In this document: positions 11,383 to 54,106 of the stretch, piece by piece
How positions within the stretch are numbered: position 1 is the first letter of the stretch
Layout of the letters: the number at the start of each line of letters is the position of its first letter
Origin: a virus
Direction: 5' to 3' (one strand)
UHGV virus genome: UHGV-0072281
Length of the DNA: 64,000 nucleotides
The notes under the pieces: generated by a model
The model's input: only the letters and a program-made list of their open reading frames with translations
Databases searched by the model: none
Told to the model about the DNA's origin: nothing
Translations under genes and position numbers: made by a program

Positions 11383-12234
11383 ATGATTGACATTTATACA
11401 GATTACGCCGCCGTTCTTACCGTCAATCGTTCGGAGGAACGTGCTGCACCGTTTCTGGATTTAGTCACGCTTTGCATGGACTACGGATACGACGTTGCGT
11501 TAAGTGATGTATACTGGCAACCGTCTTCTGACCCGGCTGACGAAACGGTTCGATTAGAAGGCATTATCGTTAAGTGTGCGGTAGCGTTAGGTAACCGTCT
11601 AGGGATAGCGTTAAATCCCCAGGAAGTTTACCATAAACCCAAAGAAACCGTACGTATTTTGGACGGTATTACTTCCAAGTTTGAAGAGTTTGAAGACACC
11701 GATACGCTTTATGGTATTGTGATGTCGGGCGAGACGCCAGAATACATTCTGGAAAGTATCTGTCGTTACGTTTACGGCGATGACAATATCCATTTCGAAG
11801 ATTTGGTTGTTCGGGTGTCTCCTCGTGTAATGACAGTGATGAGGAACTACCTGTCTTCTGTGACCGTAGACGAACAATTAGCGGCAGGTAACGACAGACG
11901 TTTGTCACGTATCGCTGATTACCTTCGTTTATATCCTCAAAACCCCTCAGCGTTCGTATTCCTTAACTTACCAGACCTGCCTGATTTGACCGTGGTTCAG
12001 CAGTCGCTGGTCTTCGATGTTGAAGACTACTCGGAAGCCGAGCTGTTGGTAATGTATGCAGTGGGCTTAACGATTATCGATAACGAGGATTACGAAGATG
12101 CGTATGGTGCGTTATCAGAGAACCTGGAGAAGCTCAACAACGAAGGGTTAAAACCGATTCCTATCTTGCAACCTGCTCTGGAAAGCTTGAAGGAGATTTA
12201 TAAGGTAGCGGAGGAAGACAATGACGAGATTTGA
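11383..12234 (+). CDS. hypothetical protein
   Basis: ATG 11383 preceded by GGAAAAGG; 283 aa; 14-nt overlap with next gene. Confidence 0.7.
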   Translation: MIDIYTDYAAVLTVNRSEERAAPFLDLVTLCMDYGYDVALSDVYWQPSSDPADETVRLEGIIVKCAVALGNRLGIALNPQEVYHKPKETVRILDGITSKFEEFEDTDTLYGIVMSGETPEYILESICRYVYGDDNIHFEDLVVRVSPRVMTVMRNYLSSVTVDEQLAAGNDRRLSRIADYLRLYPQNPSAFVFLNLPDLPDLTVVQQSLVFDVEDYSEAELLVMYAVGLTIIDNEDYEDAYGALSENLEKLNNEGLKPIPILQPALESLKEIYKVAEEDNDEI

Positions 12235-13522
12235 GTTTCTGGTGGCGGCTTGTAAAGCTGAAGCCTGGCGTCGTTTAGTGTGGCGTATTGCAATATTCAA
12301 CATGTCAGTGTTCCCGTCGAATCGTGAAGAACCTGAAGCGTTCGATATTACGTATATCGACGGAATGCCGCACTATTACGCGGTAGAAGATGGGAAAGGG
12401 GATTGGCAGCCCATTACTGATGGCGTGAAAGACCAAGAACTGTTTATTCCCGAAGAACAGTTTGAGTTGAAAGTCGATGACTACCCAGGATTAGAAGGAC
12501 CGATTCCTACTACCGTAGGACGTTATATTTTTAACTGGGTTGTTATCTGGTATGCGTTTGGTACACGCTTGCCGTATATGGGTATTTCACAAAACCCGTT
12601 AGAGTATCGTAAAGAGATGCACCGTCGTTGTTTGGATCACGAAACCGATGAACCTGAGAACGAAGGTGCTATTCGTCCGAGCATGATAGAACGCTTTGTA
12701 AGCGGCTTACACGAACTTGCACCGTTAACCGCTGGTATTGCACCAACAGGTACACTTAGAAGCCTTACGGTGCATCCTGATGCGTATAAAATACGTGATG
12801 CGTTGCTGTTAAAGCATAAGGACGAGTTAGACGACCCAGCAGTGATTGTTAAGATAGAAAAAGCACTGGACGAACTGGATAAACAGTGGCTGTCAGGTGA
12901 CCAATCTATCGAGTTCTATAACTCACCAAAATCACGAATGCGTCGACGTAAGTTGATGCTGATGTACGGGATTGAATCGTCTTTCCAGGAAGGGGGTAAC
13001 TATACGTTAATTCCTAACGCACTGGTGGAAGTTGATAAGGCGGGAATGGATAACCTGGTCGCGAAGTTTAACTCTATTCGCGAAGGTTCGTTCTCGCGTG
13101 GTGCAGAAACCGCGAAAGGTGGGGAACAGGTACGTATCATTCAGATGATTTTCCAGAACCACCGAATCGTTGCAGGTGATTGCGGGACGAAACTCACGCA
13201 CCCTGTGGTTATCACAAAAGACAACGTAAAACGTTACGTTGGGATGAACGCGATGGTTAATGGGAAGTTAACCTCCTTGACGGAAGAGTTTTTGAATAGT
13301 CAGCTAGGGAAAGTTGTGCGTCTACGCCGACCCATCTTATGTCAATACGGCCACATCGACTGCTGTACTGCGTGCTCCTCCGAAGCGAAAGGTGAAGAAC
13401 CTCGCGCTATCGCGGCGGATATTTCGTCAGCGTTCTCTAACGTTATGTCCGTGGCAATGGCCGCAATGCACGGTAAAGAAACCGTCGTTCAAGAATACGA
13501 TCCGTTGATCCATATCACCTAA
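12221..13522 (+). CDS. hypothetical protein
   Basis: 433 aa; GAGGAAGA SD before ATG. Confidence 0.8.
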   Translation: MTRFEFLVAACKAEAWRRLVWRIAIFNMSVFPSNREEPEAFDITYIDGMPHYYAVEDGKGDWQPITDGVKDQELFIPEEQFELKVDDYPGLEGPIPTTVGRYIFNWVVIWYAFGTRLPYMGISQNPLEYRKEMHRRCLDHETDEPENEGAIRPSMIERFVSGLHELAPLTAGIAPTGTLRSLTVHPDAYKIRDALLLKHKDELDDPAVIVKIEKALDELDKQWLSGDQSIEFYNSPKSRMRRRKLMLMYGIESSFQEGGNYTLIPNALVEVDKAGMDNLVAKFNSIREGSFSRGAETAKGGEQVRIIQMIFQNHRIVAGDCGTKLTHPVVITKDNVKRYVGMNAMVNGKLTSLTEEFLNSQLGKVVRLRRPILCQYGHIDCCTACSSEAKGEEPRAIAADISSAFSNVMSVAMAAMHGKETVVQEYDPLIHIT

Positions 13523-14050: not shown

Positions 14051-14096
14051 TTACCCTACTCCCGAGAGGAGTAGGGTAGCTTTTATTTTTTCTTAG
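14051..14096. terminator. bidirectional intrinsic terminator; copy 1 of a duplicated 47-bp module
   Basis: Hairpin taccctactcc-cgaga-ggagtagggta then gcttttattttttc; stop codon of minus gene (TTA 14093-14095) inside module. Confidence 0.8.
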
Positions 14097-19415: not shown

Positions 19416-19462
19416 GTACCCTACTCCTTATCGGGAGTAGGGTAGCTTTTATTTTTTCTTAG
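19416..19462. terminator. bidirectional intrinsic terminator; copy 2 of duplicated 47-bp module
   Basis: Hairpin taccctactcc-ttatcg-ggagtagggta then gcttttattttttc; stem and flank identical to 14051-14096, loop differs. Confidence 0.8.
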
Positions 19463-22413
19463 TCTGCGCTGGTATCGTGACGGTTGTAAGCGATAACAAT
19501 ATCGTCTTTCAGACCGATGTCACCACTGGCTTCAATATCCAGTTTCTTACCAATCGTTGCACGTGCAGCTTCGGATACTACAGTAAACAGACGCATGTCT
19601 TTGTCTGGCCCCATCGCATCCAACTCAACGCCGATAATCGACGTGTCAAGCGTTTCGCTGAGCTTATTACCAATCTCTGTTGCCGAGATAGTAAGATGTG
19701 AACCCAAGTAGTCGTTGATAACTTGAGACGTTTTCTTACGGATCTGCGTTAACAGATCGCTGTTGCTACGGTTAGCCGCAGTCAGGTAATAACGAACGGT
19801 AAACTGGTTTTCAGCTGGTATCGGCGTAACCACCCCGTCTTCGGTACGTGCATCGATATAACCCATCGTGGTGATAGGAACGAAATACCCTTCCGTACGC
19901 TCTAACAACATCGGTTTTAACGTCGGTAGAACCACGGTCACGTAGTTAACGATATTCTCAATAACTGCGTTCAGATAGGATTTCGCAGACGCTGTGGTAG
20001 CGAATTTATAACGTGCGTCGAAGACCGCCATTTCACTACGGAACTTAATAGAACGAGATTTCGCAATCTTAGGATTACCGTACTCGTCTTTTACTAAGTC
20101 CCCTTCGTGGTGTAGGATAATCTGCTGGCCGGTTTCGTCAAGCTTAGGATCGCCTTTACGGTGTTCGTAAGTGATTTGTAGCGGTGGTGTACGGCCTGCG
20201 TCGTACGTGTAAACCGGAACCCCATTCTCATCACGTTTCACCACGTCAATTTCCCACGTCGCTAACACGTCTTTGTCGTAATACTCGTAGTTGATGCTGT
20301 CAGTAACAGCACGAGCTTTACGCCAATAGTACGTCATCGCTTTACCCAGTTCGATTTTGAATATCTCGTGAGTAATACCGATAGCGTCGCGAGAAGGCGG
20401 TATGATTAACGCATCCATCTCTACACGTTCGTAGTTCCCAGGGTAATAACCTGTACAACCGTAGAACAGGTTAAAATCTGTCAGCAGTGCGACAGGGGTT
20501 TCCGTTGGGTTACTTCCGTTAATACGGGTGTTGGTCAGTACCAGTTCGTCGTTACGGTCAACGTCCAGGTTAGTTTCCAGCAAGAACTCCCAAACACGTT
20601 CACTGCCCTGCTTACCGACTAACGTACCGTTAATGTACGCCAAGGTGTTATCGGAATTACGAGGACGGAAAGACAGTTGTGCAAAGACTTGGTCATCAGC
20701 CAGTGCCTGGTAAGGTGCTTCTGATTTCGTAACCGTACGCAGCACATAACCCGCTTCCGTTTTCTCGATAGTGTAGTCAGCAGTAACGACACTGAGCTCC
20801 GTCGAGACGTTGGTCGCAATAAAGCGTTTGGAGTTTAATACCGGTTTATCCAACTGGTAAATACGTACGTCAATCGCTTTGTTGTTAATGTCAACAACGT
20901 AATGGAACGGTGTAAACAAATAACGGTTAGTGTTTGCTGCGTTAATCAGGTCTTCCTTACGCATGGTCTTCGCTAACACCGTCATTTCGGCATCTACAGT
21001 TAGACTGGTATCCGTAAAGCGATACAGCGTGTCAGGAAGAATGGTCAGGCGATTACCGTTGACTTTCACCGTCGGGAGATTAACCAGCTCGTTCCAGGAG
21101 AAATAGAACGGGGCAGTAATCGTTCCTATCGGTGAACTGACGTTAGCAATCGTCGATTCCAACATCGGTGCGGTCATGAAGTACGTACGACTGGTCACGT
21201 AGTCGTTAGGTTTAGACAACATGAGACCGTAATCAGAAACCGTAGCCTCAAGCTGCTTTTCTGTCACGGGCAGTTTACGTGCACCTACGGCGTTGTTAAC
21301 AACGCGAGTACGTAAATCACTGAACGAAAGCTGACTACGACCACCCGATAGCATCTTCCCAGCTTTTGCTGCAAGCTGTTTAATAGAGAACGCTTTAATC
21401 GGGTTGATATAGTTCGCGTCGTATTCTTCGTTTAAATCGCGTAGGCTGAAACTATACTCGTCGGACGGATACGCAGAGATGTCCAATTCCAACGGCCCTA
21501 AGGTCGTAAAGACGTCCATCCTGATAGTCCCACTGACGAGATTCTTCGCCATGTAAATAGATGGAATCGTACAACGGATGTTGCCGTTACCCACCTGAAT
21601 CAATGCTGTTGGTGTGTTCGGGTCGTAAACATCACGACTGTGGGTGTGTTGAATCTCTACCCACTTGTTGCTGCCCGTTGCCTTCATCCAAACACGAACA
21701 TAGAAGAACTTGTTAGTGTAACTACGCGTCATGACAAACGTGTTGCTACCTTCGACGGTGTTACTTTCTTCTTTTACCGCATACTGCATCACCGGAATAT
21801 GGATAGCCAGTAGCTGTGAAGATGTTGTGTTAGCGGACGTTAGTTCCCATTCCAGTGCGTTCGTGGAAACTGGTGAAATCGGTGATTGTGTTTCAGTAAT
21901 CCACAGTACCTGGAAAGCCGGGTTCTCGTTCGTTCCGTACGGGAGTACACGGATTTCGATTGGATATTGAATAGCAAACGTGTAACCAGAAACCGTAAAG
22001 ACCGTGTCACGTGGGATAACGACTTTACGAACCCCCGCGATTTGCAACGGATACGCTTTCGAGATTAAGCTGTCAACGTCAATTAACAGTAACAGTTCTG
22101 TAGTAGCAGGCTGCGCAAAGACGTCAACGTAATCCACGTCTGACATGTGTCGGAACAGGTCATCGTAAGTCTGCGCCATTGACGGGAACGTTTTAGGAAT
22201 AGATTCCTGGAGTCCCATCAATGTAGCGTGCCCCATCATTGTTCCCATTTCTGCCAAATAAACGACAGGGTCGGTAGGGTCACGGAGATAAATCTGACCA
22301 TCGGCATCTTCAACATCTTGAAGCTGGTTTAGCAGCATTGTCTGCATCGCCGCAGGGTTGTGTGCGAACAGCAGAAGTTTCTTTGCCAAAGTATCGTAAG
22401 TTGTTGAACTCAT
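19459..22413 (-). CDS. hypothetical large protein (possibly virion structural)
   Basis: 984-aa ORF; TGATG-type junction with upstream minus-strand gene. Confidence 0.8.
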   Translation of the reverse strand: MSSTTYDTLAKKLLLFAHNPAAMQTMLLNQLQDVEDADGQIYLRDPTDPVVYLAEMGTMMGHATLMGLQESIPKTFPSMAQTYDDLFRHMSDVDYVDVFAQPATTELLLLIDVDSLISKAYPLQIAGVRKVVIPRDTVFTVSGYTFAIQYPIEIRVLPYGTNENPAFQVLWITETQSPISPVSTNALEWELTSANTTSSQLLAIHIPVMQYAVKEESNTVEGSNTFVMTRSYTNKFFYVRVWMKATGSNKWVEIQHTHSRDVYDPNTPTALIQVGNGNIRCTIPSIYMAKNLVSGTIRMDVFTTLGPLELDISAYPSDEYSFSLRDLNEEYDANYINPIKAFSIKQLAAKAGKMLSGGRSQLSFSDLRTRVVNNAVGARKLPVTEKQLEATVSDYGLMLSKPNDYVTSRTYFMTAPMLESTIANVSSPIGTITAPFYFSWNELVNLPTVKVNGNRLTILPDTLYRFTDTSLTVDAEMTVLAKTMRKEDLINAANTNRYLFTPFHYVVDINNKAIDVRIYQLDKPVLNSKRFIATNVSTELSVVTADYTIEKTEAGYVLRTVTKSEAPYQALADDQVFAQLSFRPRNSDNTLAYINGTLVGKQGSERVWEFLLETNLDVDRNDELVLTNTRINGSNPTETPVALLTDFNLFYGCTGYYPGNYERVEMDALIIPPSRDAIGITHEIFKIELGKAMTYYWRKARAVTDSINYEYYDKDVLATWEIDVVKRDENGVPVYTYDAGRTPPLQITYEHRKGDPKLDETGQQIILHHEGDLVKDEYGNPKIAKSRSIKFRSEMAVFDARYKFATTASAKSYLNAVIENIVNYVTVVLPTLKPMLLERTEGYFVPITTMGYIDARTEDGVVTPIPAENQFTVRYYLTAANRSNSDLLTQIRKKTSQVINDYLGSHLTISATEIGNKLSETLDTSIIGVELDAMGPDKDMRLFTVVSEAARATIGKKLDIEASGDIGLKDDIVIAYNRHDTSAD

Positions 22414-23717
22414 CAGTTAGTACCTGCCTCTGTAACAAGACCATTGACACTGTCAAGTAATCCTGCTTTCTTGAGAATATATTGATAGTCTGCTTGGTAG
22501 ACATACCAGGTAAGCTTGCGCCGTACGGAATCGATATGTGGATAACCGTAATAGTTAAATAAAGGCAATAACTGTGGCGCGATAGGAACAAGTTGGTTGC
22601 TGGCCATCGGGATAAAATTCCCCGAAGCGACTGAGCCGGGCTGCGGGAGCATATCTGGGTTAAACATCCCAACGGTTTTATTGAACATCTCCATGTAAAG
22701 CGGATCGTTAAACCGTGCCCCGATTGCTTGCCAGTTGATGTTAATCGTCACGTCGTCGTTTAACTGCGGTTTTGAGTTATCGACGTTCGCCATTTGACCC
22801 GCGTTATCGTTCATCGGCCAGGCTACACAAATTGTCCAGAAACGGGTAATGTTCCCTAACGCATCGTAACGTAGACCGTAGATACGTGACTGGTAATCAA
22901 TGCGTCGTTGGATGGAGTTGCGCATCTTCGGACGGAACTTACCCATCTTAACACCCGCCATATACTCCAACCACACGCCCATCATTCTCATTAATGGGTC
23001 ACCGTAGGGGTTGTTTAGGGACATTGACACAGAGAACGCGTTGTTGATTTCGTGCGTAGAATCAACCATACCCCATTGTTCACGCATCAAACCTTCACTG
23101 GCCATCCAGTTATCGACGGACTGATCGGGTGTTCCGCTTAAACTGATCAGCTGCGTACTGAGTATTGGTATGAACGCTTGTAGATTATCGAATCTTACCT
23201 GCGGCATAAACGGAGTACCTAAGCGGTTTCTTCGTATCCCCGTTTTGCTCTCAACAGGTGAGTCCGAAAACCCTAATTCGAAATCAGGGTCGAGAGCAGC
23301 AAGTATCGAATAATCTAAAGAGTCCTTCGGCTGCAATGCCATGTTTGACATTTTACGCGACTTGGCAATGTTGTCGTAGCACAGGTTGAAATCGGGCCGG
23401 GTAATAAATGTTAGACCACCGTATTCTCGGTTGATTGGCGTGGGGTTAGACGCCATCATATGGTTGAACCCCATGTAGGGGTTGGTCAAACGCTGCGCAG
23501 CAAGACCCAAACCTACAGTAAGGCGGATACGATCGTTCCATGCCGTAAGTTCGGTGTTTGCATCGTAAGGTGTTGCCGGATTGTTGTTGCTGAGTCGGTT
23601 ATTAAAATACCCGGCAACAGAAGGCACCGCATCTGCGTTATTCGGATTGTGGAGAGAATCGTCGTAATCAGTATTCGGGTCATACCCCGGATCGTTCTTA
23701 TCTGTCTCGTCACTCAT
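22413..23717 (-). CDS. hypothetical protein (Asn/Pro/Asp-rich N-terminus)
   Basis: 434-aa ORF; GGAG SD within palindrome AACTCCGGAGTT. Confidence 0.8.
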   Translation of the reverse strand: MSDETDKNDPGYDPNTDYDDSLHNPNNADAVPSVAGYFNNRLSNNNPATPYDANTELTAWNDRIRLTVGLGLAAQRLTNPYMGFNHMMASNPTPINREYGGLTFITRPDFNLCYDNIAKSRKMSNMALQPKDSLDYSILAALDPDFELGFSDSPVESKTGIRRNRLGTPFMPQVRFDNLQAFIPILSTQLISLSGTPDQSVDNWMASEGLMREQWGMVDSTHEINNAFSVSMSLNNPYGDPLMRMMGVWLEYMAGVKMGKFRPKMRNSIQRRIDYQSRIYGLRYDALGNITRFWTICVAWPMNDNAGQMANVDNSKPQLNDDVTININWQAIGARFNDPLYMEMFNKTVGMFNPDMLPQPGSVASGNFIPMASNQLVPIAPQLLPLFNYYGYPHIDSVRRKLTWYVYQADYQYILKKAGLLDSVNGLVTEAGTN

Positions 23718-23743
23718 CTTTAACTCCGGAGTTCATTAGGAAA

Positions 23744-24850
23744 ATGTTAGAAAAAACGTTTGAGACAAGCGTTGTCTCTTTCCTCTCCAGACTTCCCATG
23801 CTGTTTCGTTCGCGTGCGGAGTCGACGGAGGAATTTAACTCAGTGCTCTATAACGAGCACATTACCTTAGTCGAACAAAGCCTGCTGGGTTTAGATTACC
23901 TTCCGGGAATTCTGGAGAAAATCCAAGTTTTGCTGGCAGGAAACCAACTTACTGCAATCTCCCTGTTAACGGGTGTGCCTGATGTTGATATTATCGGTAC
24001 GCTGGATCAAGTAAGTACCCGTCGTAGCGCACTCGATAACGCAGTGCGTAGCGGCTCACGCTTAGCAGCACTGGCAGTCGGCGAATCTTCCCGCCTAGGA
24101 TTACCATCATACGATAAAATCGGCATTGCTGTGGGTGAATCCACCCGCCGTGTCGCACAGGAATCCAAAGGTTCCGTTACTGGTGGTAAAGCAGACCCGA
24201 TTAAACAACTGTTCGATCAGGAAGGACTGTCTAACGGGAAAATGTTCTCTGTAACGTTTGAACGTGACGGTAATAAAGTCGAACTTCCAATGCGTTTACG
24301 TTTGGACGTTAAGTCTCTTCCGACCGACCAGATTGAAACACTGATTGCATTCAGCGACCAGACGAAAACGTTCTGGGAACGTTGGCTACGAGCGCGTGTA
24401 GGTGCACTGAGCTATGTTAAAGACATTGCGTTCTGCAACGACCTGGTAGAAGAATACCGTAAGAACCGTTATCGCGATAAGTCAGGTTACTATCGTAAGA
24501 TGATGGAGAAGAAAAACGGCAACTGGCTGTCTGGCTTGCTGACGCTGGCACCGTCTATTAATAACGCTTCTTCTGTTATGGTGGTTTCTCAAGACACTAT
24601 CGACGGTCTGACCGCCCAGCTAGGCGGTGAGTTTGACGATTTCAATATTCGTCAGCGTGTCTTTAAAGACACCTTAACCGTCTATTACGTGGTAGTGGAC
24701 ACTGCGTGGAACCGCGTTACTATTTATACTCGCGGTCAGAACGGTTCTCAGGAACTTGATAAATCCGATTTCAGCAAAGCGAAGTCCGGTAGCGCCGATG
24801 TGAACAAAATCATTGAAGCGTATCGCTCTGGCGCACAGCCAGTTCTTTAA
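23744..24850 (+). CDS. hypothetical protein
   Basis: 368 aa; AGGAAAA SD. Confidence 0.8.
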   Translation: MLEKTFETSVVSFLSRLPMLFRSRAESTEEFNSVLYNEHITLVEQSLLGLDYLPGILEKIQVLLAGNQLTAISLLTGVPDVDIIGTLDQVSTRRSALDNAVRSGSRLAALAVGESSRLGLPSYDKIGIAVGESTRRVAQESKGSVTGGKADPIKQLFDQEGLSNGKMFSVTFERDGNKVELPMRLRLDVKSLPTDQIETLIAFSDQTKTFWERWLRARVGALSYVKDIAFCNDLVEEYRKNRYRDKSGYYRKMMEKKNGNWLSGLLTLAPSINNASSVMVVSQDTIDGLTAQLGGEFDDFNIRQRVFKDTLTVYYVVVDTAWNRVTIYTRGQNGSQELDKSDFSKAKSGSADVNKIIEAYRSGAQPVL

Positions 24851-25813: not shown

Positions 25814-26374
25814 ATGTTTGAGCACGATAGTCCCGATTTTAATGTGGCTGTAGAGCGCATTAAAACCTATATGTCGATTTTATCAAAAAACCCAATCGAC
25901 ACACACGATGACGAGCTTATTCACAAAACGCTGGAAGCGTGTGCGGTTGTATTACCGTACTTTCGTCTGTTAGCTGCTGACTCTGTGCAGCAGGTATTAT
26001 ATGACGAATATCCGCAGGTCGGATTTACCTTTAATACGTTTTATAACGAAAGCGTAGCCTTCCTGCTTGATGGTAAACGACGCACCGTGACGTTAGGACA
26101 GTGGTCCGTATTGCTGTCGTCGTACATGAATGATGTTCGCAATACGAAGAACGTTGAACAGACGGGCTCATTGGGTGGACGTCTTCTTGCTGCTGCGTTT
26201 GGTCGCCGGGGTACTGTACGTAATATGGGTTCCGCTCACCAGTCTGTTGAGTGTAGCAAACGTCTTTTATCTTATGCAGACCATGAACTGCTGGCACGCT
26301 GGATGACACGCCCGAACGGGTTGTCCGACATGATCTCGTCGTTAGCAGTGTTTTTGAAAATCGCACGTCCCTAA
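25814..26374 (+). CDS. hypothetical protein
   Basis: 186 aa; AGGAGAG SD. Confidence 0.75.
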   Translation: MFEHDSPDFNVAVERIKTYMSILSKNPIDTHDDELIHKTLEACAVVLPYFRLLAADSVQQVLYDEYPQVGFTFNTFYNESVAFLLDGKRRTVTLGQWSVLLSSYMNDVRNTKNVEQTGSLGGRLLAAAFGRRGTVRNMGSAHQSVECSKRLLSYADHELLARWMTRPNGLSDMISSLAVFLKIARP

Positions 26375-26433
26375 GGGGGCCCCTCATTCTAGGGGCGTGT
26401 AATTGGGTTATATAACCAAAGGAAATAAACGAA

Positions 26434-29118: not shown

Positions 29119-29168
29119 AAAAATAATTTCAGATATATATTACTTAAGTGAGATTACACAGTAATCTC
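29119..29168 (+). promoter_or_regulatory. conserved promoter-like element, copy 1 (core TTTCAGATATATATTACTTAAGTGAGA)
   Basis: Near-identical to 37372-37423 over ~50 nt; located between terminator and next gene. Confidence 0.5.
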
Positions 29169-37423: not shown

Positions 37424-37455
37424 CATTTATCGTATACCTAATTAGGAGCTATATC

Positions 37456-39420: not shown

Positions 39421-40983
39421 TCAAAAGAGTTCGTCACCCATACCGCCTGTAAAGACGTTAATCGACGATGCAGTCACTGTTTCTTCTTTATCGCAATCCC
39501 ATGGCAGAATGCCAACTTCACGGAAAGGTATTACTGTATAATGGTAAGCTTCTTTAGTATCGATAATTGTACGGTGTTTACCACGTTGTACTTCTAAGTA
39601 ACTATGCCCATTGACAACACGTTTGTTAAAATACATCTCACCGTCAGCTTCGTTATCCAAGCTGGAGCAGTTATCGTAAAGACCGCGACCTGGTAAGTTC
39701 TTACAGAAACTTGCTGGGTCTAACGCTTTTAATTTTTTGCCTTCTGGTGAGATTTGGTGTGGCGCTAACAAGAAACCACGGTTACGTACTACCTGGATGT
39801 TTCGAGCGATACGATAAATTTCTTTAATGTCGCTACCGGCAATCCCGTTACCGTGACCTGCTTTACTGATAGTCCCGAAATAGTCTCCGCGAATCCCAGC
39901 TACATGATAACCTCGACGCTTTAAGTCCAGTATTAAGTCGTTTAAGTAATGTATTTTAAAATCTGAGTTTGTGTGTTTCTGAAAGATGTACTCCCAACCG
40001 TTAGCCCGCATTTTACTACAGAGGTAGTCCGACATTTTTGTGTTGTGTAAAGCTTTCTCTTCGTCGGTAGCGTTTTCAGAAGCAACCATAACCGGTGCTT
40101 CACCTTCAAAATGACCGTAGAGCGCTTGGTACGCATACGCCAAATTAACGTCCAGTTCGTTCTCTAAACTTAAATCGAGAATAACCGGCTGTAAATCCCC
40201 TTTAACGTTTTCCATTACCTTTTCAGGCGTATTGAATACCGGAATACTGATAGACAACAACAGACTAAAAAGCGATTTACAGTTAAAGGGCAGTGCAGGC
40301 ATTAGCCAAAGTTCTTCAGTAATCCCTTTGTTACAACCCAACATCTGGTTAATGGCTTTCCATCCGGTACGTAAACCATTACCCGCTGCTTTCTTACTGA
40401 TTGAGTCGAACACATGTACGAACGGTGCACGGTTATCCGTAATAAGTTCACCTACGAGTGAGGGAATCTTATTATGAGAGCGTTCACTGAACGTAGAGAG
40501 ACTATCTCTGAGGTCGTTGAGCGCTGTTTGTAAATCAACGCGCGTTTCGGTTCCGTTCAGTGCGCCTAACGTACGACCTAATTTTTGTTTCAGTTGTACG
40601 CCTTGAATAGCTTGACGTAATTGGAAGTAGTATTGTGCTACTTGACGGTTAAGATGCTCGATGCGTGCTTCTGGTTCTTCTGGAATATCATCTTCCAGGA
40701 ATTTGGTAATCGTATCGTATAGAGGACGTATTTGCGTAGTGGCCAGTTTCAAACGTTTCATGACGTTTGTGTGGTCGTAAGGCATACCGCCGTCTATGAT
40801 GGATGTGATGATATCCTTGATTTCGACGAGGGCGGCACGTTCGTCACCTTCCTCTACGTAATCAGGAAGCTTAGCCTCTAACAGCACTTTTCTTATGACC
40901 TCGTGATCCTTCTCAGGGTCGGTCAGCAGACTTTCAGTGTATAGTGTGGCTAATGCGGTTATCAACATCATTTTGTTATTCAT
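39421..40983 (-). CDS. hypothetical protein
   Basis: 520-aa ORF; start codon 13 bp from divergent gene start. Confidence 0.8.
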   Translation of the reverse strand: MNNKMMLITALATLYTESLLTDPEKDHEVIRKVLLEAKLPDYVEEGDERAALVEIKDIITSIIDGGMPYDHTNVMKRLKLATTQIRPLYDTITKFLEDDIPEEPEARIEHLNRQVAQYYFQLRQAIQGVQLKQKLGRTLGALNGTETRVDLQTALNDLRDSLSTFSERSHNKIPSLVGELITDNRAPFVHVFDSISKKAAGNGLRTGWKAINQMLGCNKGITEELWLMPALPFNCKSLFSLLLSISIPVFNTPEKVMENVKGDLQPVILDLSLENELDVNLAYAYQALYGHFEGEAPVMVASENATDEEKALHNTKMSDYLCSKMRANGWEYIFQKHTNSDFKIHYLNDLILDLKRRGYHVAGIRGDYFGTISKAGHGNGIAGSDIKEIYRIARNIQVVRNRGFLLAPHQISPEGKKLKALDPASFCKNLPGRGLYDNCSSLDNEADGEMYFNKRVVNGHSYLEVQRGKHRTIIDTKEAYHYTVIPFREVGILPWDCDKEETVTASSINVFTGGMGDELF

Positions 40984-40996
40984 GGAGCATCCTTAA

Positions 40997-41521
40997 ATGC
41001 AAATTCGTTTTAGTCCACCGTGGGAAGTTCAGCCTAACATAGATAAAGGCGCTGCCGTTAAAAGTGTAGAATTGCTCCAGGCAGGGTTCTTTAACTGGTT
41101 ATATGACTGTCCGAATGGTTTCAGTTCTATCATCTTACCTGAAGTAAGTCGTTCTGCTATTTATAAAGCGTTAATGGCTCCGCCTGTACTTCCAGGTAAA
41201 TATTATGATCAGGTGTTACGTCTGGTCGAATCAGGCGAAAAGGTTTCCCTTGACGATTTATATGGGGAAACAATTCCTTGTCGCTTACGCTGGGTCTTTA
41301 CCCAACGTGGTGATACGATTGTGGCGTCATTTGCAGAAGCGAAGTCCGGTTCGGGTTTTTCTTCGGGTGAAGACCACGCTGCGAAAAAGATGTTCTGCGC
41401 AGAACTTTTTAAATATATGCGTACCAAGACTCGCGTCGTGGATGACTGCTTCAGTACCTCAACGCAGTTTGCCGCTAACGAAGTGCTGACGCAATTATAC
41501 GCATGTCATTTATCTCATTAA
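40997..41521 (+). CDS. hypothetical protein
   Basis: 174 aa; GGAG SD 9 nt upstream. Confidence 0.75.
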   Translation: MQIRFSPPWEVQPNIDKGAAVKSVELLQAGFFNWLYDCPNGFSSIILPEVSRSAIYKALMAPPVLPGKYYDQVLRLVESGEKVSLDDLYGETIPCRLRWVFTQRGDTIVASFAEAKSGSGFSSGEDHAAKKMFCAELFKYMRTKTRVVDDCFSTSTQFAANEVLTQLYACHLSH

Positions 41522-43819: not shown

Positions 43820-43834
43820 TATCGAATAAAAAGT

Positions 43835-49193: not shown

Positions 49194-51911
49194 TTAGAGA
49201 GTTTCATCGCTGTTGTCATCTGCACCGGTATCCGTCTCGTCCGTGCCTTCAGTTGAAACGTCTTCTTCCGTTGCCGTATCGGTTTCCGTCGTTTCATCGT
49301 CAGTCATGTCCAAGTCTTCATCACCGCCCAGATCGTCACCACCTAAGTCCTCATCGCCTCCTAAGCCGCCGTCATCTTCAGTGCCGCCGCCAAAGTCGCT
49401 GCTACCGCCGAAGTTATTGGCGTCTTCAGGATTCAGATCAGCCGCTTTTGCTAACGTTTCAACTTTCCCTGTTACACGTTTTGCCAACTGAATCAGTGTC
49501 TTAGATGCAGACGCAATTTCGTCAGAGATCATCTTAACGTTTTCACCGCGTTTCTCTTCATCGTAAATCAGGTCGAACATATCGTTCTCAATACCCTGAC
49601 TACGTAACCAGTGGCGCGCGTAGAAGGTCTTAACCATCGTCTTGAGGTCATCAGGTGACATTTCAATACCTTCGTTCTGAAGCATATTAGCAATGTCATC
49701 CGTGACCACCAGATCTGCAAGTTTCTCGATAAATTCATAGCGTTTATCGAAGAGATCAGCTTGAGATGCTGTTGCAGAAGTATCAGGTGGTGGCAAGGTG
49801 ACCTTCATACCGTTGATAAACTTCGCCATATACTCTGACGTTTGTTTTGTCATCTCTTCGCTAGATACATTCGGATTCTGCTCACGGATATACTCAACGA
49901 TAATACGGATGAGTTCTGCTTGCAGTTTCGGTGAAGCTTGCAGACTGTTTGTAACGTAGCGCGTAAGCGGGGTTGAGAGGATTTCCTGTTTCTTCACAAT
50001 CTGTTGAGTAACCAACAGCGATTTAGAATAAATCTGAGAAGCAAACTCCAGGTTCTCCGGGGTAAGTACAAGGTCAGGATCAACACACGCGATGTGACAT
50101 GTACGGCGTAACAGGTTCTCGTCAATTTGTTGATCAGGAACTTTATACTCCGGCGTGGTATCAGACACAGACACTTTGTGGCTGGCGTAGTAATCGTTAC
50201 CCGTTACGTTAAAGGCAATCCCCGCGTTAGCTCCCATTGCCCAAGCATCGTTAATATCCCCCCACATCGGTAAACGACGGTTGTAGGAGTTAAGGATATC
50301 TGATTTGGCTTGGTCGACAGTTTTTTGACCGTTTGCATCGTCCGGTGACAGCTCAATGTCGTACTGCATGTGACGTGCCGAGTTTAGTACAGATGAGTTC
50401 ATTGTCGCAAACAGCAGTGCCATCCTGACGGTGGAGATGATAAAAGAGCGTTCAGTGATAGAAACCCCGATACCATCTTCGTTAAAATCCGTTGCAAAAT
50501 AGCATAGGTTATTAACCGGAATGTAAACCACTTGAGTATGACGTTTTGCGAGATGACGCGCTAACAGAATACGGCCGAATGTTTCGGTAATATTCATGCT
50601 GATTTCTGCGCCACCTAGTGCCTGACTTAATGCGCGAGCAAATTCGTTTTCAGCGATTTCACCGCAACGTGTACTTAAACGGTTGGCGATTTCCGGGGTA
50701 ATGCGAGAAGTGTTCCCTAAGCCCAGATTAGAACGGTTAATGATGCTGTCCGTCATCCCGTCGTTATTCAGGTAGTTCATAAAGTTCGCATCGCCGTACA
50801 GCGAGGAGCGAGCATTGATGAAGTTACCCATGTCATCTACGATGGTCAGATAACCAATAGGGTTACGAACGTCATCGCCAATTACCAGTGGCAGCGTTGA
50901 CTCTGCGGGCAGTAAACGTTCGATGTATTCGATTTTGTTATTCTCATCCATTGAGATAATAGGAATATCACCGTACGTTTGTGTTTTCGGTGTTGACTTA
51001 TACGCCTCGTTTAAATCACCCAAGTTAATGAACCCTTTTTCAGCAGCGTCACGCTGACGGTCATCGAAAGATTGGTTAGGGTCGAACGGACTGCCACCGT
51101 TTGGTGTAGACGGCTTTTCATATGCGGCTTGCTCTAATTGCCCGTACAAACCCGTACGTGCGTTCTCATGCGCGATACGACGATACAAATCCGGCAGCAT
51201 GGTAATGCGCGGGTTATCGGTAATCGTGATTTCCATCTGGAATTTATCCGAGAACATCGAATCGTGCTTACCGAAATCGATTTTCAACGTCTGAGGACCA
51301 GTAACGGCTCCGTGTAAACGGTTGAGAATTGATTCCACACCAACTCGCTGCCCTTCTTTCGGCGCATTAATAGGCCCGAGAATACCAAGCTGTTGTTCGA
51401 AGAACGCCGTTTGGGAACGACGAATAGATTCAGTAGCGACCTTTGTATTCAGACCGAATAATTGGTCGAAGCCGGTATCCGAGATTATCATCACTGGACT
51501 TGCGCCTTTGGTTTTTAACGCATCGTAAATCCACTGATATAATTTCTTAGGTAGCTGACGAATGTTATCGTGATAATCACGGGTCGGTGTCAGTAGCGCG
51601 TTACGCAGATCAATGGGGATGTCCGCGAAGTTGTCGTAAATCAACGTCGTGTTGATTAAGTCTTTTGTTGATAACAGGCTCGAAGTTGCAATAGTAACGA
51701 TTGTTTCGAGTTCAGGTAACGCATCAAAGATACGTTCCGCATTTTTGATAGTACGAATACGTGAACTCGCAATTGCCGTGAGTTCTTGACGTGTTGGCGT
51801 AGAACCACCCTCGCTACGCGTACCGCGTTGTTGCTGAGGTGCTGGGCCCGTAGTTTTACGAAGAATTGCAGCTACGGCGGGGTCGCCCGTTAATTTACTA
51901 ATATCGTCCAT
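49194..51911 (-). CDS. hypothetical large protein with extremely acidic Gly/Asp/Glu/Thr-rich C-terminal tail
   Basis: 905-aa ORF; C-terminal ~75 aa NNFGGSSDFGGGTEDDGGLGGDEDLGGDDLGGDEDLDMTDDETTETDTATEEDVSTEGTDETDTGADDNSDETL. Confidence 0.8.
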   Translation of the reverse strand: MDDISKLTGDPAVAAILRKTTGPAPQQQRGTRSEGGSTPTRQELTAIASSRIRTIKNAERIFDALPELETIVTIATSSLLSTKDLINTTLIYDNFADIPIDLRNALLTPTRDYHDNIRQLPKKLYQWIYDALKTKGASPVMIISDTGFDQLFGLNTKVATESIRRSQTAFFEQQLGILGPINAPKEGQRVGVESILNRLHGAVTGPQTLKIDFGKHDSMFSDKFQMEITITDNPRITMLPDLYRRIAHENARTGLYGQLEQAAYEKPSTPNGGSPFDPNQSFDDRQRDAAEKGFINLGDLNEAYKSTPKTQTYGDIPIISMDENNKIEYIERLLPAESTLPLVIGDDVRNPIGYLTIVDDMGNFINARSSLYGDANFMNYLNNDGMTDSIINRSNLGLGNTSRITPEIANRLSTRCGEIAENEFARALSQALGGAEISMNITETFGRILLARHLAKRHTQVVYIPVNNLCYFATDFNEDGIGVSITERSFIISTVRMALLFATMNSSVLNSARHMQYDIELSPDDANGQKTVDQAKSDILNSYNRRLPMWGDINDAWAMGANAGIAFNVTGNDYYASHKVSVSDTTPEYKVPDQQIDENLLRRTCHIACVDPDLVLTPENLEFASQIYSKSLLVTQQIVKKQEILSTPLTRYVTNSLQASPKLQAELIRIIVEYIREQNPNVSSEEMTKQTSEYMAKFINGMKVTLPPPDTSATASQADLFDKRYEFIEKLADLVVTDDIANMLQNEGIEMSPDDLKTMVKTFYARHWLRSQGIENDMFDLIYDEEKRGENVKMISDEIASASKTLIQLAKRVTGKVETLAKAADLNPEDANNFGGSSDFGGGTEDDGGLGGDEDLGGDDLGGDEDLDMTDDETTETDTATEEDVSTEGTDETDTGADDNSDETL

Positions 51912-51922
51912 TGGGGTCTCCG

Positions 51923-54106
51923 ATGCAGAGATTTAACATATTTCGTGAACAGAACATCGCGTTGGCGAAATCACTGATTATTAAATCAGAATCAATCGCA
52001 CAACAGATGAATCTGGCAATAACCGAGAACGGCGGTTTCGTTTCCGATAACCGAAGTACGTGGCGATACTACCTGCATTTAGCAGGACAACGTCACGAAT
52101 GGGATAAGCCCATTTACATAACGTCGCTCGACACGCAAGAGCAGATAGAATTAACGACAGCCAACCTGTCCCGTCATAAAAAGACCTCAAACGTATTTCG
52201 TTCGAACGGTGAGTACATTGAGGAGCTGATCAGAACGTATCCTGACTACGCGATTTATATCCGAGGTGTGTTTAATCCGGTGGATATAAACTACGCCATC
52301 CGTGTGGCTGATTGTTCTATTCTCTATTACGACAGTTCATTAGTGGAGTCGCAAGAGACGTCACTGATGTCGAGATTGGAAGACAGAATAAGGGCAGCTC
52401 ACGTTCGCTATATGTCAGAAGGGTGGAAAGTTCACAACGATGCGTTCGTGTTAGCATTCTACTGTATTCTGTATCCGCAGCTACCCGGCATTATCGGCTA
52501 TATCCGTTCTTCTTTACAGCATACCACGGAAACACACTCGTTTTACGTGACAGAGTTCTTAGCATCACACCAAGAACTTCACGAGTTTATGCCGTATCTG
52601 ACCCAGAAACAGAAATTCATTCTTTATCGGAACATTCGTTACTGGGAACGTAACTCGGGGAAAGAGGAGATTTTCGACTGGCAGATTGATGCATTGCTGA
52701 CAGGTTGGGGGATGCCTGCGGTTGGGTATAATGTTGCACAACAGATACACGAACCGAAGGATGATGATGACTCCACGTTAACACCGTTACCGATCGGTTA
52801 TCAGCAATCGCTTAACTATACGGAAAAGGATTCTGGTCGAGACCTTGACATTGTAACGACGACAGACATTATCCAGAAGGAAGTCGCGTTAGCGTACAAT
52901 AACCCGGCGTACGAACCGGAGTATCAGGAAGACTTAGATACCCGTTTAAGTTTAACGCAATACCCTAACCTGAAAACCAAACTCATTGAAGTTACAGCAG
53001 TCGACCCAGAAGCGATTGAGCGCTTCGAGTATCTGCATAACCTCTTTAACGAATGGGTACATCTCGTCGCGAAAGGGAAATACAACATTTACCACGAGAT
53101 TCTTAACCCAACAAACGGGGATACCTTAAAGCTTAGCTCAAAAGAGTTATTGGCGCTGTTCTTATACGCGGCGTATAAAGGGTATTCTGACGTTGCGTTA
53201 GAAGAGATTCCTGCGTTCAACGTATTCGGGGTGTTAATCAAACGTTGGGTTTCGTTCGACGAAATGGAACAACATTTAATCCCGAGCTGGGAAAACCGTT
53301 TCGAAGCGTTGATTAACTATTATACCGATACACACACAGAAGTCGTCGGAACGATTCTTAGTGCTGATGAACTCTACGACACGGTTAATGAAATCATTAC
53401 CCAGAAACGTCGTCGTTGGCGTTATAGTCAAAACCGTCGGAAGATTCCTGACCGTGCTGCGGGCTTGATGCTGTTTAACTACCATTACCGTGATTATCGC
53501 TGCGATTTAAAACTGAACTACCGTAACTACGATGAGTTCTTTAAAACGTTCGGGTTAGATTATACATTGGTTTCGGCGGAGACGTGGCAAGACATTGCTA
53601 TTGATGCGTTTAACACCGCGACTAACCTGGAAACCCGTGCAACGATTTCACAGTCTGAGATTCAGCGTGCAATGGTACGATTGATGACGAAGTTGTCATC
53701 CTACACCGTACATTTTGCTGCGCGAATGGGGTCAGATTCTTACGACGTTATGGACCCGCTCTGTCCCATCTTAGGGGATATCCCTATGAGTGGGGAGGGG
53801 ACAATTACAATTATTGAACCCCTCTTAGGCGTACAGCAAGTTACGCGTCACCAGTATATATCCACCGACACTGTGTTACCGGCAGCGCCTGTTATTAAAG
53901 AACTGTCGATGCCGCAGCACATCAAACTCAGGATGAACATTTACATGGGCATCCGAGTGAAAGTAACACAGCAGGTTGTGGTGGATATTAACGAGCCGAC
54001 TACCGGGGTTGTTAAAGTGAAATCTTCGCTTGACGATTGGACGTTAAACGAACAGGTGAAAATTAACGATCTTGACGGCTTCACGCTTGACCAGCTACCT
54101 AAGTGA
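51923..54106 (+). CDS. hypothetical protein
   Basis: 727 aa from ATG 51923; start lies 12 nt from divergent gene start. Confidence 0.75.
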   Translation: MQRFNIFREQNIALAKSLIIKSESIAQQMNLAITENGGFVSDNRSTWRYYLHLAGQRHEWDKPIYITSLDTQEQIELTTANLSRHKKTSNVFRSNGEYIEELIRTYPDYAIYIRGVFNPVDINYAIRVADCSILYYDSSLVESQETSLMSRLEDRIRAAHVRYMSEGWKVHNDAFVLAFYCILYPQLPGIIGYIRSSLQHTTETHSFYVTEFLASHQELHEFMPYLTQKQKFILYRNIRYWERNSGKEEIFDWQIDALLTGWGMPAVGYNVAQQIHEPKDDDDSTLTPLPIGYQQSLNYTEKDSGRDLDIVTTTDIIQKEVALAYNNPAYEPEYQEDLDTRLSLTQYPNLKTKLIEVTAVDPEAIERFEYLHNLFNEWVHLVAKGKYNIYHEILNPTNGDTLKLSSKELLALFLYAAYKGYSDVALEEIPAFNVFGVLIKRWVSFDEMEQHLIPSWENRFEALINYYTDTHTEVVGTILSADELYDTVNEIITQKRRRWRYSQNRRKIPDRAAGLMLFNYHYRDYRCDLKLNYRNYDEFFKTFGLDYTLVSAETWQDIAIDAFNTATNLETRATISQSEIQRAMVRLMTKLSSYTVHFAARMGSDSYDVMDPLCPILGDIPMSGEGTITIIEPLLGVQQVTRHQYISTDTVLPAAPVIKELSMPQHIKLRMNIYMGIRVKVTQQVVVDINEPTTGVVKVKSSLDDWTLNEQVKINDLDGFTLDQLPK

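What the first reader, a model, noticed from the sequence alone, without database searches (positions are those of the whole stretch)
23715..23746. Divergent genes with start codons only 26 bp apart sharing a palindromic Shine-Dalgarno
Minus gene 22413-23717 and plus gene 23744-24850 are separated by 26 bp containing the perfect palindrome AACTCCGGAGTT, which presents GGAG to both mRNAs. Comparable back-to-back starts occur at 40983/40997 (13 bp) and 51911/51923 (11 bp). There is no room for conventional promoters between them, so transcription must start inside the opposite coding region, the genes must be expressed from far-upstream promoters, or very short promoters are used.
Basis: seen in the sequence. 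Interest (0 to 1): 0.45.

Follow-up and report, generated by a model that had tools for sequence, protein, structure and literature searches.

The report
Back-to-back phage genes with embedded promoters
Two oppositely oriented virion genes of an SPN3US-like giant phage start only 26 bases apart, with their ribosome-binding sites abutting as a palindrome; they are most likely transcribed from tiny phage-specific TATG promoters hidden inside each other's coding sequence, as measured for one direction in the relative phiKZ, so the arrangement is real but ordinary for this phage family.

Summary
Minus gene 22413-23717 and plus gene 23744-24850 are phiKZ gp88 and gp89 homologues. They are separated by 26 bp containing AACTCCGGAGTT. 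The two other tight junctions (13 and 11 bp) are also real.

All three junctions are conserved in five genera of SPN3US-like jumbo phages, and ACTCCGGAGT is invariant in 11 genomes. The palindrome is best read as two abutting Shine-Dalgarno cores, CTCC for the minus gene (6-nt spacing) and GGAG for the plus gene (12 nt, the longest in the window). As a 12-bp palindrome it is not rarer than chance.

The phage encodes split multisubunit RNA polymerases and has phiKZ-type early promoters. No spacer holds a TATG, the phiKZ late-promoter core. Eight antisense TATGs lie 55-799 nt inside the opposite genes and point at the junctions. All eight are invariant across six genera, against 0 of 20 antisense TATGs elsewhere.

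TATG is also strongly avoided in coding sequence on both strands. In phiKZ, the gp89 operon's mapped start site (88779, TTATCGTATG) lies inside gp88. The window has the same 10-mer antisense at 24107-24116.

Start sites were not measured here. This is a new member of a known kind.

The parts
22413..23717 (-). Minus gene, 434 aa. Homologue of phiKZ gp88 and SPN3US 'virion structural protein 3'. First gene of a two-gene minus operon.
   Evidence: ORF; phrog_3196; N-terminus conserved in 10 relatives; synteny with phiKZ gp88.
19459..22413 (-). Second gene of the minus operon, 984 aa, phiKZ gp87 homologue.
19417..19444 (.). Bidirectional intrinsic terminator, TACCCTACTCC-loop-GGAGTAGGGTA, with T-runs on both strands. 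It ends the minus operon and blocks plus-strand read-through from upstream.
23718..23743 (.). 26-bp spacer between the divergent start codons. It contains no TATG on either strand.
23722..23733 (.). Perfect 12-bp palindrome AACTCCGGAGTT. The core ACTCCGGAGT is invariant in 11 genomes.
23724..23727 (-). Shine-Dalgarno core of the minus gene (GGAG on the minus strand), 6 nt from its ATG.
23728..23731 (+). Shine-Dalgarno core of the plus gene (GGAG), 12 nt from its ATG. Spacing is 10-12 nt in nine of the ten relatives and 6 nt in EarlPhillipIV.
23744..24850 (+). Plus gene, 368 aa. Homologue of phiKZ gp89 and SPN3US 'virion structural protein 4'. First gene of the plus operon.
23459..23465 (+). 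Predicted proximal late promoter for the plus operon. TATGGTT is antisense inside the minus gene. Predicted +1 is G at 23462, giving a 282-nt leader.
   Evidence: Invariant in 11 genomes and the third-longest invariant run of the gene.
23166..23174 (+). Predicted distal late promoter for the plus operon, TGGTATGAA. Predicted +1 is G at 23172, giving a 572-nt leader. It uses the rare Ile codon ATA of the minus gene.
   Evidence: Longest invariant run of the minus gene in 11 genomes.
24107..24116 (-). Predicted late promoter for the minus operon. TATCGTATGA is antisense inside the plus gene (codons TCA-TAC-GAT, Ser-Tyr-Asp). Predicted +1 is G at 24108, giving a 391-nt leader.
   Evidence: Longest invariant run of the plus gene in 11 genomes. 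Identical to the phiKZ late-promoter core at start site 88779.
40984..40996 (.). Junction 2 spacer GGAGCATCCTTAA, between the DnaB-like helicase gene (minus) and the gene preceding the major head protein gene (plus). The SDs are crossed.
40890..40899 (+). Predicted late promoter TTCTTATGAC inside the helicase gene. Predicted +1 is at 40897, 100 nt before the plus ATG at 40997. A second site, GGAATCTTATTATGA, lies at 40463-40477.
   Evidence: The two longest invariant runs of that region in 6 genera.
41037..41046 (-). Predicted promoter for the helicase gene, TTATCTATGT on the minus strand. Predicted +1 is at 41038, 55 nt before the minus ATG at 40983.
51912..51922 (.). Junction 3 spacer TGGGGTCTCCG, with crossed SDs.
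51120..51124 (+). Invariant ATATG inside minus gene 49194-51911. Predicted +1 is at 51124, 799 nt before the plus ATG at 51923.
52175..52179 (-). Invariant TTATG on the minus strand, inside plus gene 51923-54106. Predicted +1 is at 52175, 264 nt before the minus ATG at 51911.

Best explanation
The window comes from an SPN3US-like, nucleus-forming (phiKZ-like) jumbo phage that transcribes its genes with its own multisubunit RNA polymerases.

The 26-bp junction is a maximally compacted divergent translation-initiation region. Two 4-nt Shine-Dalgarno cores, CTCC (read on the minus strand) and GGAG (plus strand), abut. Together with similar A/U-rich linkers they form the palindrome.

Transcription does not start in the spacer. 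The non-virion RNA polymerase is inferred to start at phiKZ-type late promoters, whose only specific element is TATG with G as +1. These promoters are embedded antisense in the opposite gene. For the plus operon they are at 23459-23462 and 23169-23172. For the minus operon the site is at 24111-24108.

Each mRNA would therefore carry a leader of 282-572 nt (plus) or 391 nt (minus), antisense to the 5' part of the other gene. The two primary transcripts would overlap by at least 647 nt. The same design holds at junctions 40983/40997 and 51911/51923.

Shown here: the anatomy, the conservation, the motif statistics and the phiKZ precedent. Inferred: that these TATGs are used as start sites in this phage.
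For: 1. Identity of the phage. The window is about 75-77% identical in DNA to SPN3US-like phages. It encodes split RNA polymerase beta/beta' genes. It carries phiKZ-type early promoters, AGATATATATTACT.

2. Conservation of the junction. It is present in 10 relatives from 5 genera, with spacers of 21-29 bp and an invariant ACTCCGGAGT. The starts are confirmed by conserved N-termini.

3. No TATG lies in the spacer. The longest nucleotide run invariant in 11 genomes is TCATACGATA (antisense TATCGTATGA) in the plus gene. In the minus gene it is the antisense TGGTATGAA, with antisense TATGGTT third. Three of 4 antisense TATGs are invariant against 1.9% of all 4-nt windows (P=2.9e-5). None of 9 sense TATGs is invariant.

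4. Wider test over 28 genes and 33 kb in 6 genera. Eight of 32 antisense TATGs are invariant, and all 8 lie 55-799 nt upstream of a tight divergent start and point at it. The split is 8 of 12 near junctions against 0 of 20 elsewhere (Fisher P=4.7e-5). Against the local background of 4.3%, the binomial P is 4.7e-9. Three of the eight retain the rare Ile codon ATA, which makes up 8% of Ile codons.

5. TATG is avoided in coding sequence on both strands relative to synonymous-codon shuffles. On the sense strand, 162 are observed against 278 expected (z=-10.4, third most depleted of 256 4-mers). On the antisense strand, 49 against 92 (z=-6.3). This is comparable to GAGG and GATC.

6. An intergenic TATG follows a terminator upstream of gene 31667 in all 6 genomes.

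7. Precedent at the homologous phiKZ junction. ONT-cappable-seq unit TU072 starts at 88779 and covers gp89-gp90. In AF399011 that position is the G of TTATCGTATG, 175 nt inside the gp88 coding sequence. At phiKZ gp83|gp84, the minus start site 81969 lies inside gp84.

8. The crossed SDs at junctions 2 and 3 force start sites into the opposite gene.

9. The bidirectional terminator at 19417-19444 argues against read-through into the plus gene.
Against: No transcript 5' ends exist for this phage or any SPN3US-like phage in the literature I could search.

In phiKZ, TATG is necessary but not sufficient in vitro (PMC4666361), and 32 of 149 phiKZ start sites have no recognisable motif (PMC10914365). 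Other promoters may therefore exist closer to or in the spacer.

The phiKZ data list no transcription unit for gp88/gp87. The minus-direction precedent therefore comes from another junction.

The positions of the embedded TATGs are not homologous between phiKZ/RAY and the SPN3US-like clade. The phiKZ site reads GTCGTAGCA in the window.

Leaders of up to 799 nt are long.

The 6-11 genomes are phylogenetically related, so the P values overstate independence.

Two rows of the supplementary table (P046, P047) have sequences offset from their listed positions.

The 12-nt SD spacing of the plus gene is suboptimal.
Confidence: 0.66

Rival explanations
1. Transcription starts in or at the edge of the spacer from a promoter class with no TATG, such as a middle-type or so far undefined phage promoter. 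The polymerase footprint would simply cover the neighbouring coding sequence, giving very short leaders. The conserved palindrome or the conserved first codons of the minus gene would be part of that promoter.
For: The first 15 codons of the minus gene have the highest synonymous-codon identity of that gene, 0.69 against 0.505 overall. Within them, GTCTCGTYACTCAT is invariant in 10 of the 11 genomes, all except EarlPhillipIV. In phiKZ about a fifth of mapped start sites have no motif (PMC10914365). In phiKZ and RAY the longer spacers do contain a minus-strand TATG overlapping the plus gene's SD.
Against: At junctions 2 and 3 each SD touches the opposite start codon, so no start site within the spacer could give an mRNA that carries its SD. 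None of the three spacers has a TATG. CTCCGGAG occurs only once in 64 kb, so it is not a general promoter element. This rival does not explain why the embedded antisense TATGs are the most conserved stretches of the flanking genes.
Confidence: 0.15
2. The invariant palindrome ACTCCGGAGT is, in addition to or instead of two SDs, the binding site of a dimeric DNA- or RNA-binding regulator that co-controls both operons.
For: It is perfectly conserved over 10 bp in 11 genomes while neighbouring spacer bases vary. The next pair out changes on both sides together, AA..TT to TA..TA in the Machina clade, keeping the symmetry. The plus gene's GGAG spacing of 10-12 nt is longer than usual.
Against: The element occurs once in the window, and the other two tight junctions have different, non-palindromic spacers. 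Eight of the ten invariant bases are explained by the two SD cores. The extended symmetry follows from two similar A/U-rich linkers. More distant relatives (phiKZ, RAY, Goslar) have the two SDs separated by 11-30 bp with no common palindrome. The both-sides change is a single event.
Confidence: 0.08
3. The genes are expressed by read-through from far-upstream promoters on long polycistronic transcripts, with no promoter near the junction.
For: Many genes in the window start only about 10-20 nt after a terminator hairpin. Read-through therefore must occur somewhere in this genome.
Against: For the plus gene, read-through would have to pass the strong bidirectional terminator at 19417-19444 and then 4.2 kb of antisense sequence. 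For each minus operon, a minus-strand promoter must in any case lie within the downstream plus-strand genes. That is the embedded-promoter model at a larger distance. Conserved antisense TATGs are found only within 800 nt of the junctions.
Confidence: 0.06
4. One or both start codons are mis-assigned and the genes really start further apart.
For: The PHROG profile for the minus protein begins at residue 50.
Against: Both N-termini are conserved as protein in 10 relatives, with the Met aligned (offset by one residue for the plus protein of EarlPhillipIV) and indels in whole codons. No in-frame upstream start exists for the plus gene. Independent annotations in 10 genomes agree. Each start has a GGAG upstream.
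Confidence: 0.03

Closest known systems
phiKZ late promoters of the non-virion RNA polymerase (5'-T(-3)ATG(+1)-3'; Ceyssens 2014, Yakunina 2015 PMC4666361, Putzeys 2024 PMC10914365)
   Same: The core is the same, and for the minus-operon site the same 10-mer (TATCGTATGA) as the phiKZ promoter at start site 88779. Both sit upstream of virion genes and inside coding sequence. In phiKZ the promoter of the homologous gp89 operon also sits inside the homologous opposite gene, gp88. The early-promoter motif is also shared.
   Different: Use of these sites as start sites is inferred here, not measured. Their positions within the genes are not homologous to the phiKZ/RAY site. In the SPN3US-like clade the spacers are compacted to 11-29 bp and contain no TATG at all, whereas the phiKZ and RAY spacers (39 and 53 bp) still carry a minus-strand TATG.
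Overlapping divergent transcription units, such as the 'excludon' type of long antisense-overlapping 5' leaders in Listeria and other bacteria (from general knowledge), and phiKZ gp83|gp84 start sites P043/P044
   Same: Divergent genes whose primary transcripts are predicted to overlap head-to-head: 647, 142 and 1052 nt at the three junctions. phiKZ P043 (+81932) and P044 (-81969) overlap by 38 nt, with P044 inside gp84.
   Different: No evidence here that the overlap is regulatory. An excludon is defined by a demonstrated inhibitory effect of one long transcript on the opposite gene, which was not tested.
Back-to-back Shine-Dalgarno sites in compact divergent bacterial and phage intergenic regions
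   Same: GGAG complementary to the 16S rRNA 3' end lies upstream of each ATG. The 6-nt spacing for the minus gene is typical of this window.
   Different: The two cores abut with no base between them, giving a palindrome. The plus gene's spacing (12 nt) is the longest in the window. At junctions 2 and 3 the SDs are interleaved (crossed) rather than back-to-back.

Membership tests
phiKZ-type late promoter (nvRNAP) | TATG motif, all four bases required | tested here: met
   TATG is present and invariant at 23169, 23459 and 24108(-) in 11 genomes, and at 40473, 40894, 41038(-), 51121 and 52175(-) in 6 genera.
phiKZ-type late promoter (nvRNAP) | The G of TATG is the transcription start site | not testable with these tools
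   No transcript 5'-end data exist for this phage or its close relatives. Only the phiKZ homologous operon has a mapped start site, 88779.
phiKZ-type late promoter (nvRNAP) | Phage encodes the multisubunit non-virion RNA polymerase, including a gp68-like specificity subunit | tested here: inconclusive
   Split RNA polymerase beta/beta' genes are found in the window at 1925-4165, 4165-6264 and 12221-13522. Whether these are the virion or non-virion set was not determined. A gp68 homologue was not looked for.
phiKZ-type late promoter (nvRNAP) | The motif behaves as a signal: it is selected where used and avoided elsewhere | tested here: met
   TATG is depleted in coding sequence on both strands (z=-10.4 and -6.3). 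Conserved copies are confined to positions upstream of divergent or late genes.
Shine-Dalgarno translation initiation site | Complementarity to the 16S rRNA 3' end | tested here: met
   GGAG is on both strands and invariant in 11 genomes. The core is only 4 nt, and the flanking bases do not extend the pairing (read from the sequence).
Shine-Dalgarno translation initiation site | Spacing of about 5-10 nt to the start codon | tested here: inconclusive
   Minus gene: 6 nt, met. Plus gene: 12 nt in the window, 10-12 nt in nine of the ten relatives, 6 nt in EarlPhillipIV. This is at the edge of the functional range and the longest in the window.
Palindromic operator of a dimeric regulator | Recurrence of the site at co-regulated promoters, or a cognate binding protein | tested here: not met
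   CTCCGGAG occurs once in 64 kb. The other tight junctions have unrelated spacers. Protein binding is not testable here.
Leaderless mRNA | Start site at the start codon, with no SD | tested here: not met
   All six genes at the three junctions have SD-like motifs at 6-12 nt. phiKZ dRNA-seq found no leaderless transcripts (PMC8244752).
Structured RNA element at the junction | Stable or covarying secondary structure | tested here: not met
   Fold z-scores are -0.30, -0.29 and +0.70. The alignment fold gives -1.7 kcal/mol with weak covariation. There are no Rfam hits.

The most novel reading that the evidence does not exclude
The head-to-head antisense overlap of the divergent transcripts (142-1052 nt, conserved in position across five genera) would be a regulatory device rather than a by-product of compaction. 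Pairing of the two leaders, or polymerase collision, would couple or balance expression of the opposed operons in an excludon-like manner, possibly with RNase III processing. The invariant CUCCGGAG palindrome, present in both RNAs, would serve as the nucleation or processing site, or as the site of a dimeric factor.
Probability: 0.1. Interest if true: 0.65.

Novelty: new member of a known kind. Interest (0 to 1): 0.4.

Why it matters
The analysis gives base-precise, testable start-site predictions for SPN3US-like jumbo phages, for which I found no transcription map.

It indicates that the minimal TATG late promoter of phiKZ probably operates across a distant branch of the nucleus-forming phages. 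It also shows that such promoters can be located by comparative genomics. They appear as invariant synonymous sites inside genes, against a background of genome-wide TATG avoidance. That bears on an open problem in the field: what makes a TATG a promoter when the motif alone is insufficient.

For genome engineering of these phages, recoding the 5' parts of these genes could silence the neighbouring divergent operon.

Tried and rejected
- **Sigma-70 promoter scan.** Across 17-30 kb it found fewer sites than the shuffles (11 against 15.7) and none in the spacer, so host-type promoters give no explanation.
- **RNA structure of the junction and palindrome.** Not different from shuffles.
- **Terminator-like hairpin at 23762-23778.** It lies in the predicted minus leader and the plus gene's codons 7-12, but it is not convincingly conserved (consensus -1.7 kcal/mol). 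I dropped it.
- **Rfam.** No family matched in the whole window.
- **Homologous position of the phiKZ/RAY embedded promoter.** That site is the NLSYDN codons of gp88. In the window it reads GTCGTAGCA (NLCYDN), with no TATG. The promoter position is therefore not conserved between clades.
- **TATG between terminators and starts in intergenic regions.** Only 3-4 of 14 such regions have one, which is inconclusive alone. One of them, upstream of 31667, is conserved in all 6 genomes.
- **Supplements of PMC10914365 and PMC11512511.** Not held. The bioRxiv version supplied the phiKZ start-site table, in which rows P046 and P047 show sequences offset from their listed positions. I relied only on position 88779, which coincides with the G of TATCGTATG in AF399011.
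- **gp119 homology.** tblastn of the small gene before the major head protein gene found no phiKZ homologue, so I could not equate the 40894 site with phiKZ P119L.
Full report
**What is there**

The sequence is as described. The minus-strand ATG is at 23717-23715 and the plus-strand ATG at 23744. The 26-bp spacer is CTTTAACTCCGGAGTTCATTAGGAAA, with the perfect palindrome AACTCCGGAGTT at 23722-23733.

The window belongs to an undescribed SPN3US-like jumbo phage, about 75-77% identical in DNA to Seoulvirus and Erskinevirus genomes. It encodes split RNA polymerase beta/beta' subunits.

The two genes are the homologues of phiKZ gp88 (minus) and gp89 (plus), annotated as virion or head structural proteins. 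The minus gene heads a two-gene operon that ends at a bidirectional terminator at 19417-19444.

**Are the starts right, and is the feature more than chance?**

Ten relatives from five genera (Seoulvirus, Erskinevirus, Machinavirus, Wellingtonvirus, Derbicusvirus) have the same divergent pair, with annotated spacers of 21-29 bp. Both N-termini are conserved as protein, with the initiator Met aligned (offset by one residue for the plus protein of EarlPhillipIV) and whole-codon indels. The start codons therefore stand.

A 12-bp perfect palindrome is not unusual in itself: the window has 16 against 15.6 expected. CTCCGGAG occurs once against 0.54 expected.

What is unusual is conservation. ACTCCGGAGT is invariant in all 11 genomes while the rest of the spacer varies. 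The next pair out changes on both sides in the Machina clade, from AA..TT to TA..TA.

**The palindrome**

GGAG lies 6 nt from the minus ATG, which is typical. My gene calls in the window have SD-like motifs mostly at 5-9 nt. For the plus gene the same motif on the other strand lies 12 nt from the ATG. That is the longest spacing in the window. In the relatives it is 10-12 nt in nine and 6 nt in EarlPhillipIV.

In more distant relatives the two SDs face outward with a gap between them. The spacer is 39 bp in phiKZ, 53 bp in RAY and 34 bp in Goslar. The SPN3US-like state looks like the same design compacted until the two cores touch.

The extended symmetry is explained by both genes having A/U-rich SD-to-ATG linkers. 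The RNA does not fold unusually. The motif does not recur in the window.

I therefore read the palindrome as two abutting SDs rather than one shared site or an operator. An extra role cannot be excluded.

At junctions 2 (GGAGCATCCTTAA) and 3 (TGGGGTCTCCG) the SDs are crossed. Each lies against the other gene's start codon. An mRNA that carries its own SD must therefore begin inside the opposite gene.

**Where transcription starts: background**

phiKZ-like phages do not use host RNA polymerase. Their late promoters have only a TATG core overlapping the start, with G as +1. All four bases are required in vitro, but the motif alone is not sufficient (PMC4666361, PMC7598289, PMC7618050).

The window has the phiKZ early-promoter motif, AGATATATATTACT, in several intergenic regions. 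Promoter specificity therefore seems conserved between the clades.

**Where transcription starts: evidence at junction 1**

None of the three tight spacers contains a TATG.

In codon alignments of the two junction-1 genes across 11 genomes I looked for the longest runs of invariant nucleotides.

- In the plus gene the longest run is TCATACGATA at 24107-24116. Read antisense this is TATCGTATGA.
- In the minus gene the longest run is the antisense TGGTATGAA at 23166-23174. The third longest is the antisense TATGGTT at 23459-23465.

Three of the 4 antisense TATGs in these genes are invariant, against 1.9% of all 4-nt windows (P=2.9e-5). None of the 9 sense TATGs is invariant.

**Where transcription starts: the wider test**

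I extended the test to 28 genes (33 kb) with orthologues in SPN3US, Asesino, Machina, Wellington and EarlPhillipIV.

Eight of 32 antisense TATGs are invariant. All eight lie 55-799 nt upstream of one of the three tight divergent starts and point at it.

| Junction | Invariant antisense TATGs (leftmost plus-strand base, strand) |
|---|---|
| 1 (23717/23744) | 23169 +, 23459 +, 24108 - |
| 2 (40983/40997) | 40473 +, 40894 +, 41038 - |
| 3 (51911/51923) | 51121 +, 52175 - |

Near the junctions 8 of 12 are invariant, against 0 of 20 elsewhere (Fisher P=4.7e-5). Against the local background of 4.3% the binomial P is 4.7e-9.

Three of the eight keep the rare Ile codon ATA, which makes up 8% of Ile codons.

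**Independent lines of support**

TATG is among the most avoided 4-mers in coding sequence relative to synonymous-codon shuffles.

| Strand | Observed | Expected | z |
|---|---|---|---|
| Sense | 162 | 278 | -10.4 |
| Antisense | 49 | 92 | -6.3 |

This is comparable with GAGG (internal SD) and GATC.

An intergenic TATG is conserved after a terminator, upstream of gene 31667, in all six genomes.

Three conserved sense TATGs lie just upstream of the major head protein gene.

**Experimental precedent**

In the phiKZ ONT-cappable-seq data (bioRxiv 10.1101/2023.10.13.562163, supplement), transcription unit TU072 covers gp89-gp90 and starts at 88779. In AF399011 that base is the G of TTATCGTATG, and it lies 175 nt inside the oppositely oriented gp88 coding sequence.

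The window's predicted minus-operon promoter has the same 10-mer, TATCGTATGA.

RAY keeps the phiKZ site at the homologous codons, ATTATCGTATGACA. The SPN3US-like clade has lost it there, and its conserved TATGs lie elsewhere in the gene.

At phiKZ gp83|gp84, the late start site P044, attributed in the table to Ceyssens et al. 2014, is at 81969 on the minus strand. It lies inside gp84 and overlaps the plus start site at 81932.

**Model**

Late in infection, the phage polymerase is inferred to start at the following sites.

| Operon | Predicted +1 | Leader length |
|---|---|---|
| Plus (23744 onward), proximal | 23462 | 282 nt |
| Plus (23744 onward), distal | 23172 | 572 nt |
| Minus (23717 down to 19459) | 24108 | 391 nt |

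Both leaders run through the spacer, so each mRNA carries its SD. The two primary transcripts would overlap by at least 647 nt. The corresponding overlaps are 142 nt at junction 2 and 1052 nt at junction 3.

Whether that overlap has any regulatory consequence is unknown.

**Caveats**

- No 5' ends have been mapped in this clade.
- TATG alone is not sufficient in phiKZ, and about a fifth of phiKZ start sites have no motif.
- phiKZ shows no mapped unit for gp88/gp87.
- The compared genomes are related, so the P values are optimistic.
- Two rows of the supplementary table are offset from their listed positions.
- The first 15 codons of the minus gene show raised synonymous conservation, 0.69 against 0.505 overall. 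I cannot assign this. It could reflect translation-initiation constraints or an element in the plus leader.

**Verdict**

This is a new member of a known kind, the phiKZ-type late transcription architecture. It is notable for extreme compaction and for clear comparative evidence of promoters written into synonymous sites.

Noticed in passing
window 41392-41414: A 23-nt run, GTTCTGCGCAGAACTTTTTAAAT, is invariant in six genera and is the longest invariant run found. It consists of the palindrome TTCTGCGCAGAA plus a T-run. It lies inside the small gene 40997-41521, about 120 nt upstream of the major head protein start at 41534. It could be an attenuator, a processing site or a regulatory site.
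   Followed up: no
window 26350-26410 (end of gene 25814-26374 and the following intergenic region): The sequence CACGTCCCTAAGGGGGCCCCT..TCTAGGGGCGTG is almost identical in all six genomes, including its non-coding part. It looks like a hairpin without a T-run, upstream of the internal head protein gene 26434.
   Followed up: no
L014-L018, about 60-90 nt upstream of the orthologues of window gene 44001-45011: In five relatives a TATG sits in the loop of a hairpin whose stem sequence differs between genomes but stays complementary. It is followed by an early-promoter motif, GAGATAGATATTATC. The window's own region (43820-44102) is organised differently.
   Followed up: no
window approx. 1880-1895, 29140-29160, 37395-37415, 43895-43910: The AT-rich motif AGATA(T/G)ATATTA(C/T) recurs. 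It matches the phiKZ early (virion RNA polymerase) promoters listed in the phiKZ start-site table. One copy lies in the looser 63-bp divergent spacer 1862-1924.
   Followed up: partly
window 14054-14080 and 19417-19444: Two nearly identical bidirectional terminators, TACCCTACTCC-loop-GGAGTAGGGTA followed by GCTTTTATTTTTTC, each sit between convergent genes.
   Followed up: no
window 40714-40722 and 37425-37437: ATCGTATAG is invariant in six genera, and TTTATCGTATAC lies in an intergenic region. Both resemble the late motif TATCGTATG but have TATA in place of TATG. Relatives have TATAGGAGG where the window has TATGGAGG upstream of gene 59598. This may be a variant start motif.
   Followed up: no
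whole window, coding sequences: Besides TATG, the 4-mers GATC, AATT, GAGG, CTAG, AAAA and TTTT are strongly depleted relative to synonymous-codon shuffles. This suggests avoidance of Dam or restriction sites, internal SDs and T/A runs.
   Followed up: no
window 23673-23717 (first 15 codons of the minus gene): This stretch has the highest synonymous-codon identity of the gene, 0.69 against 0.505 overall. GTCTCGTYACTCAT is invariant in 10 of 11 genomes. The cause is unknown.
   Followed up: partly
bioRxiv 10.1101/2023.10.13.562163, supplementary start-site table, rows phiKZ P046 and P047: The listed 50-bp upstream sequences end at 88530 and 88779 in AF399011, but the listed start-site positions are 88779 and 89053. 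The rows appear offset, and both sequences end in TATG inside gp88.
   Followed up: partly
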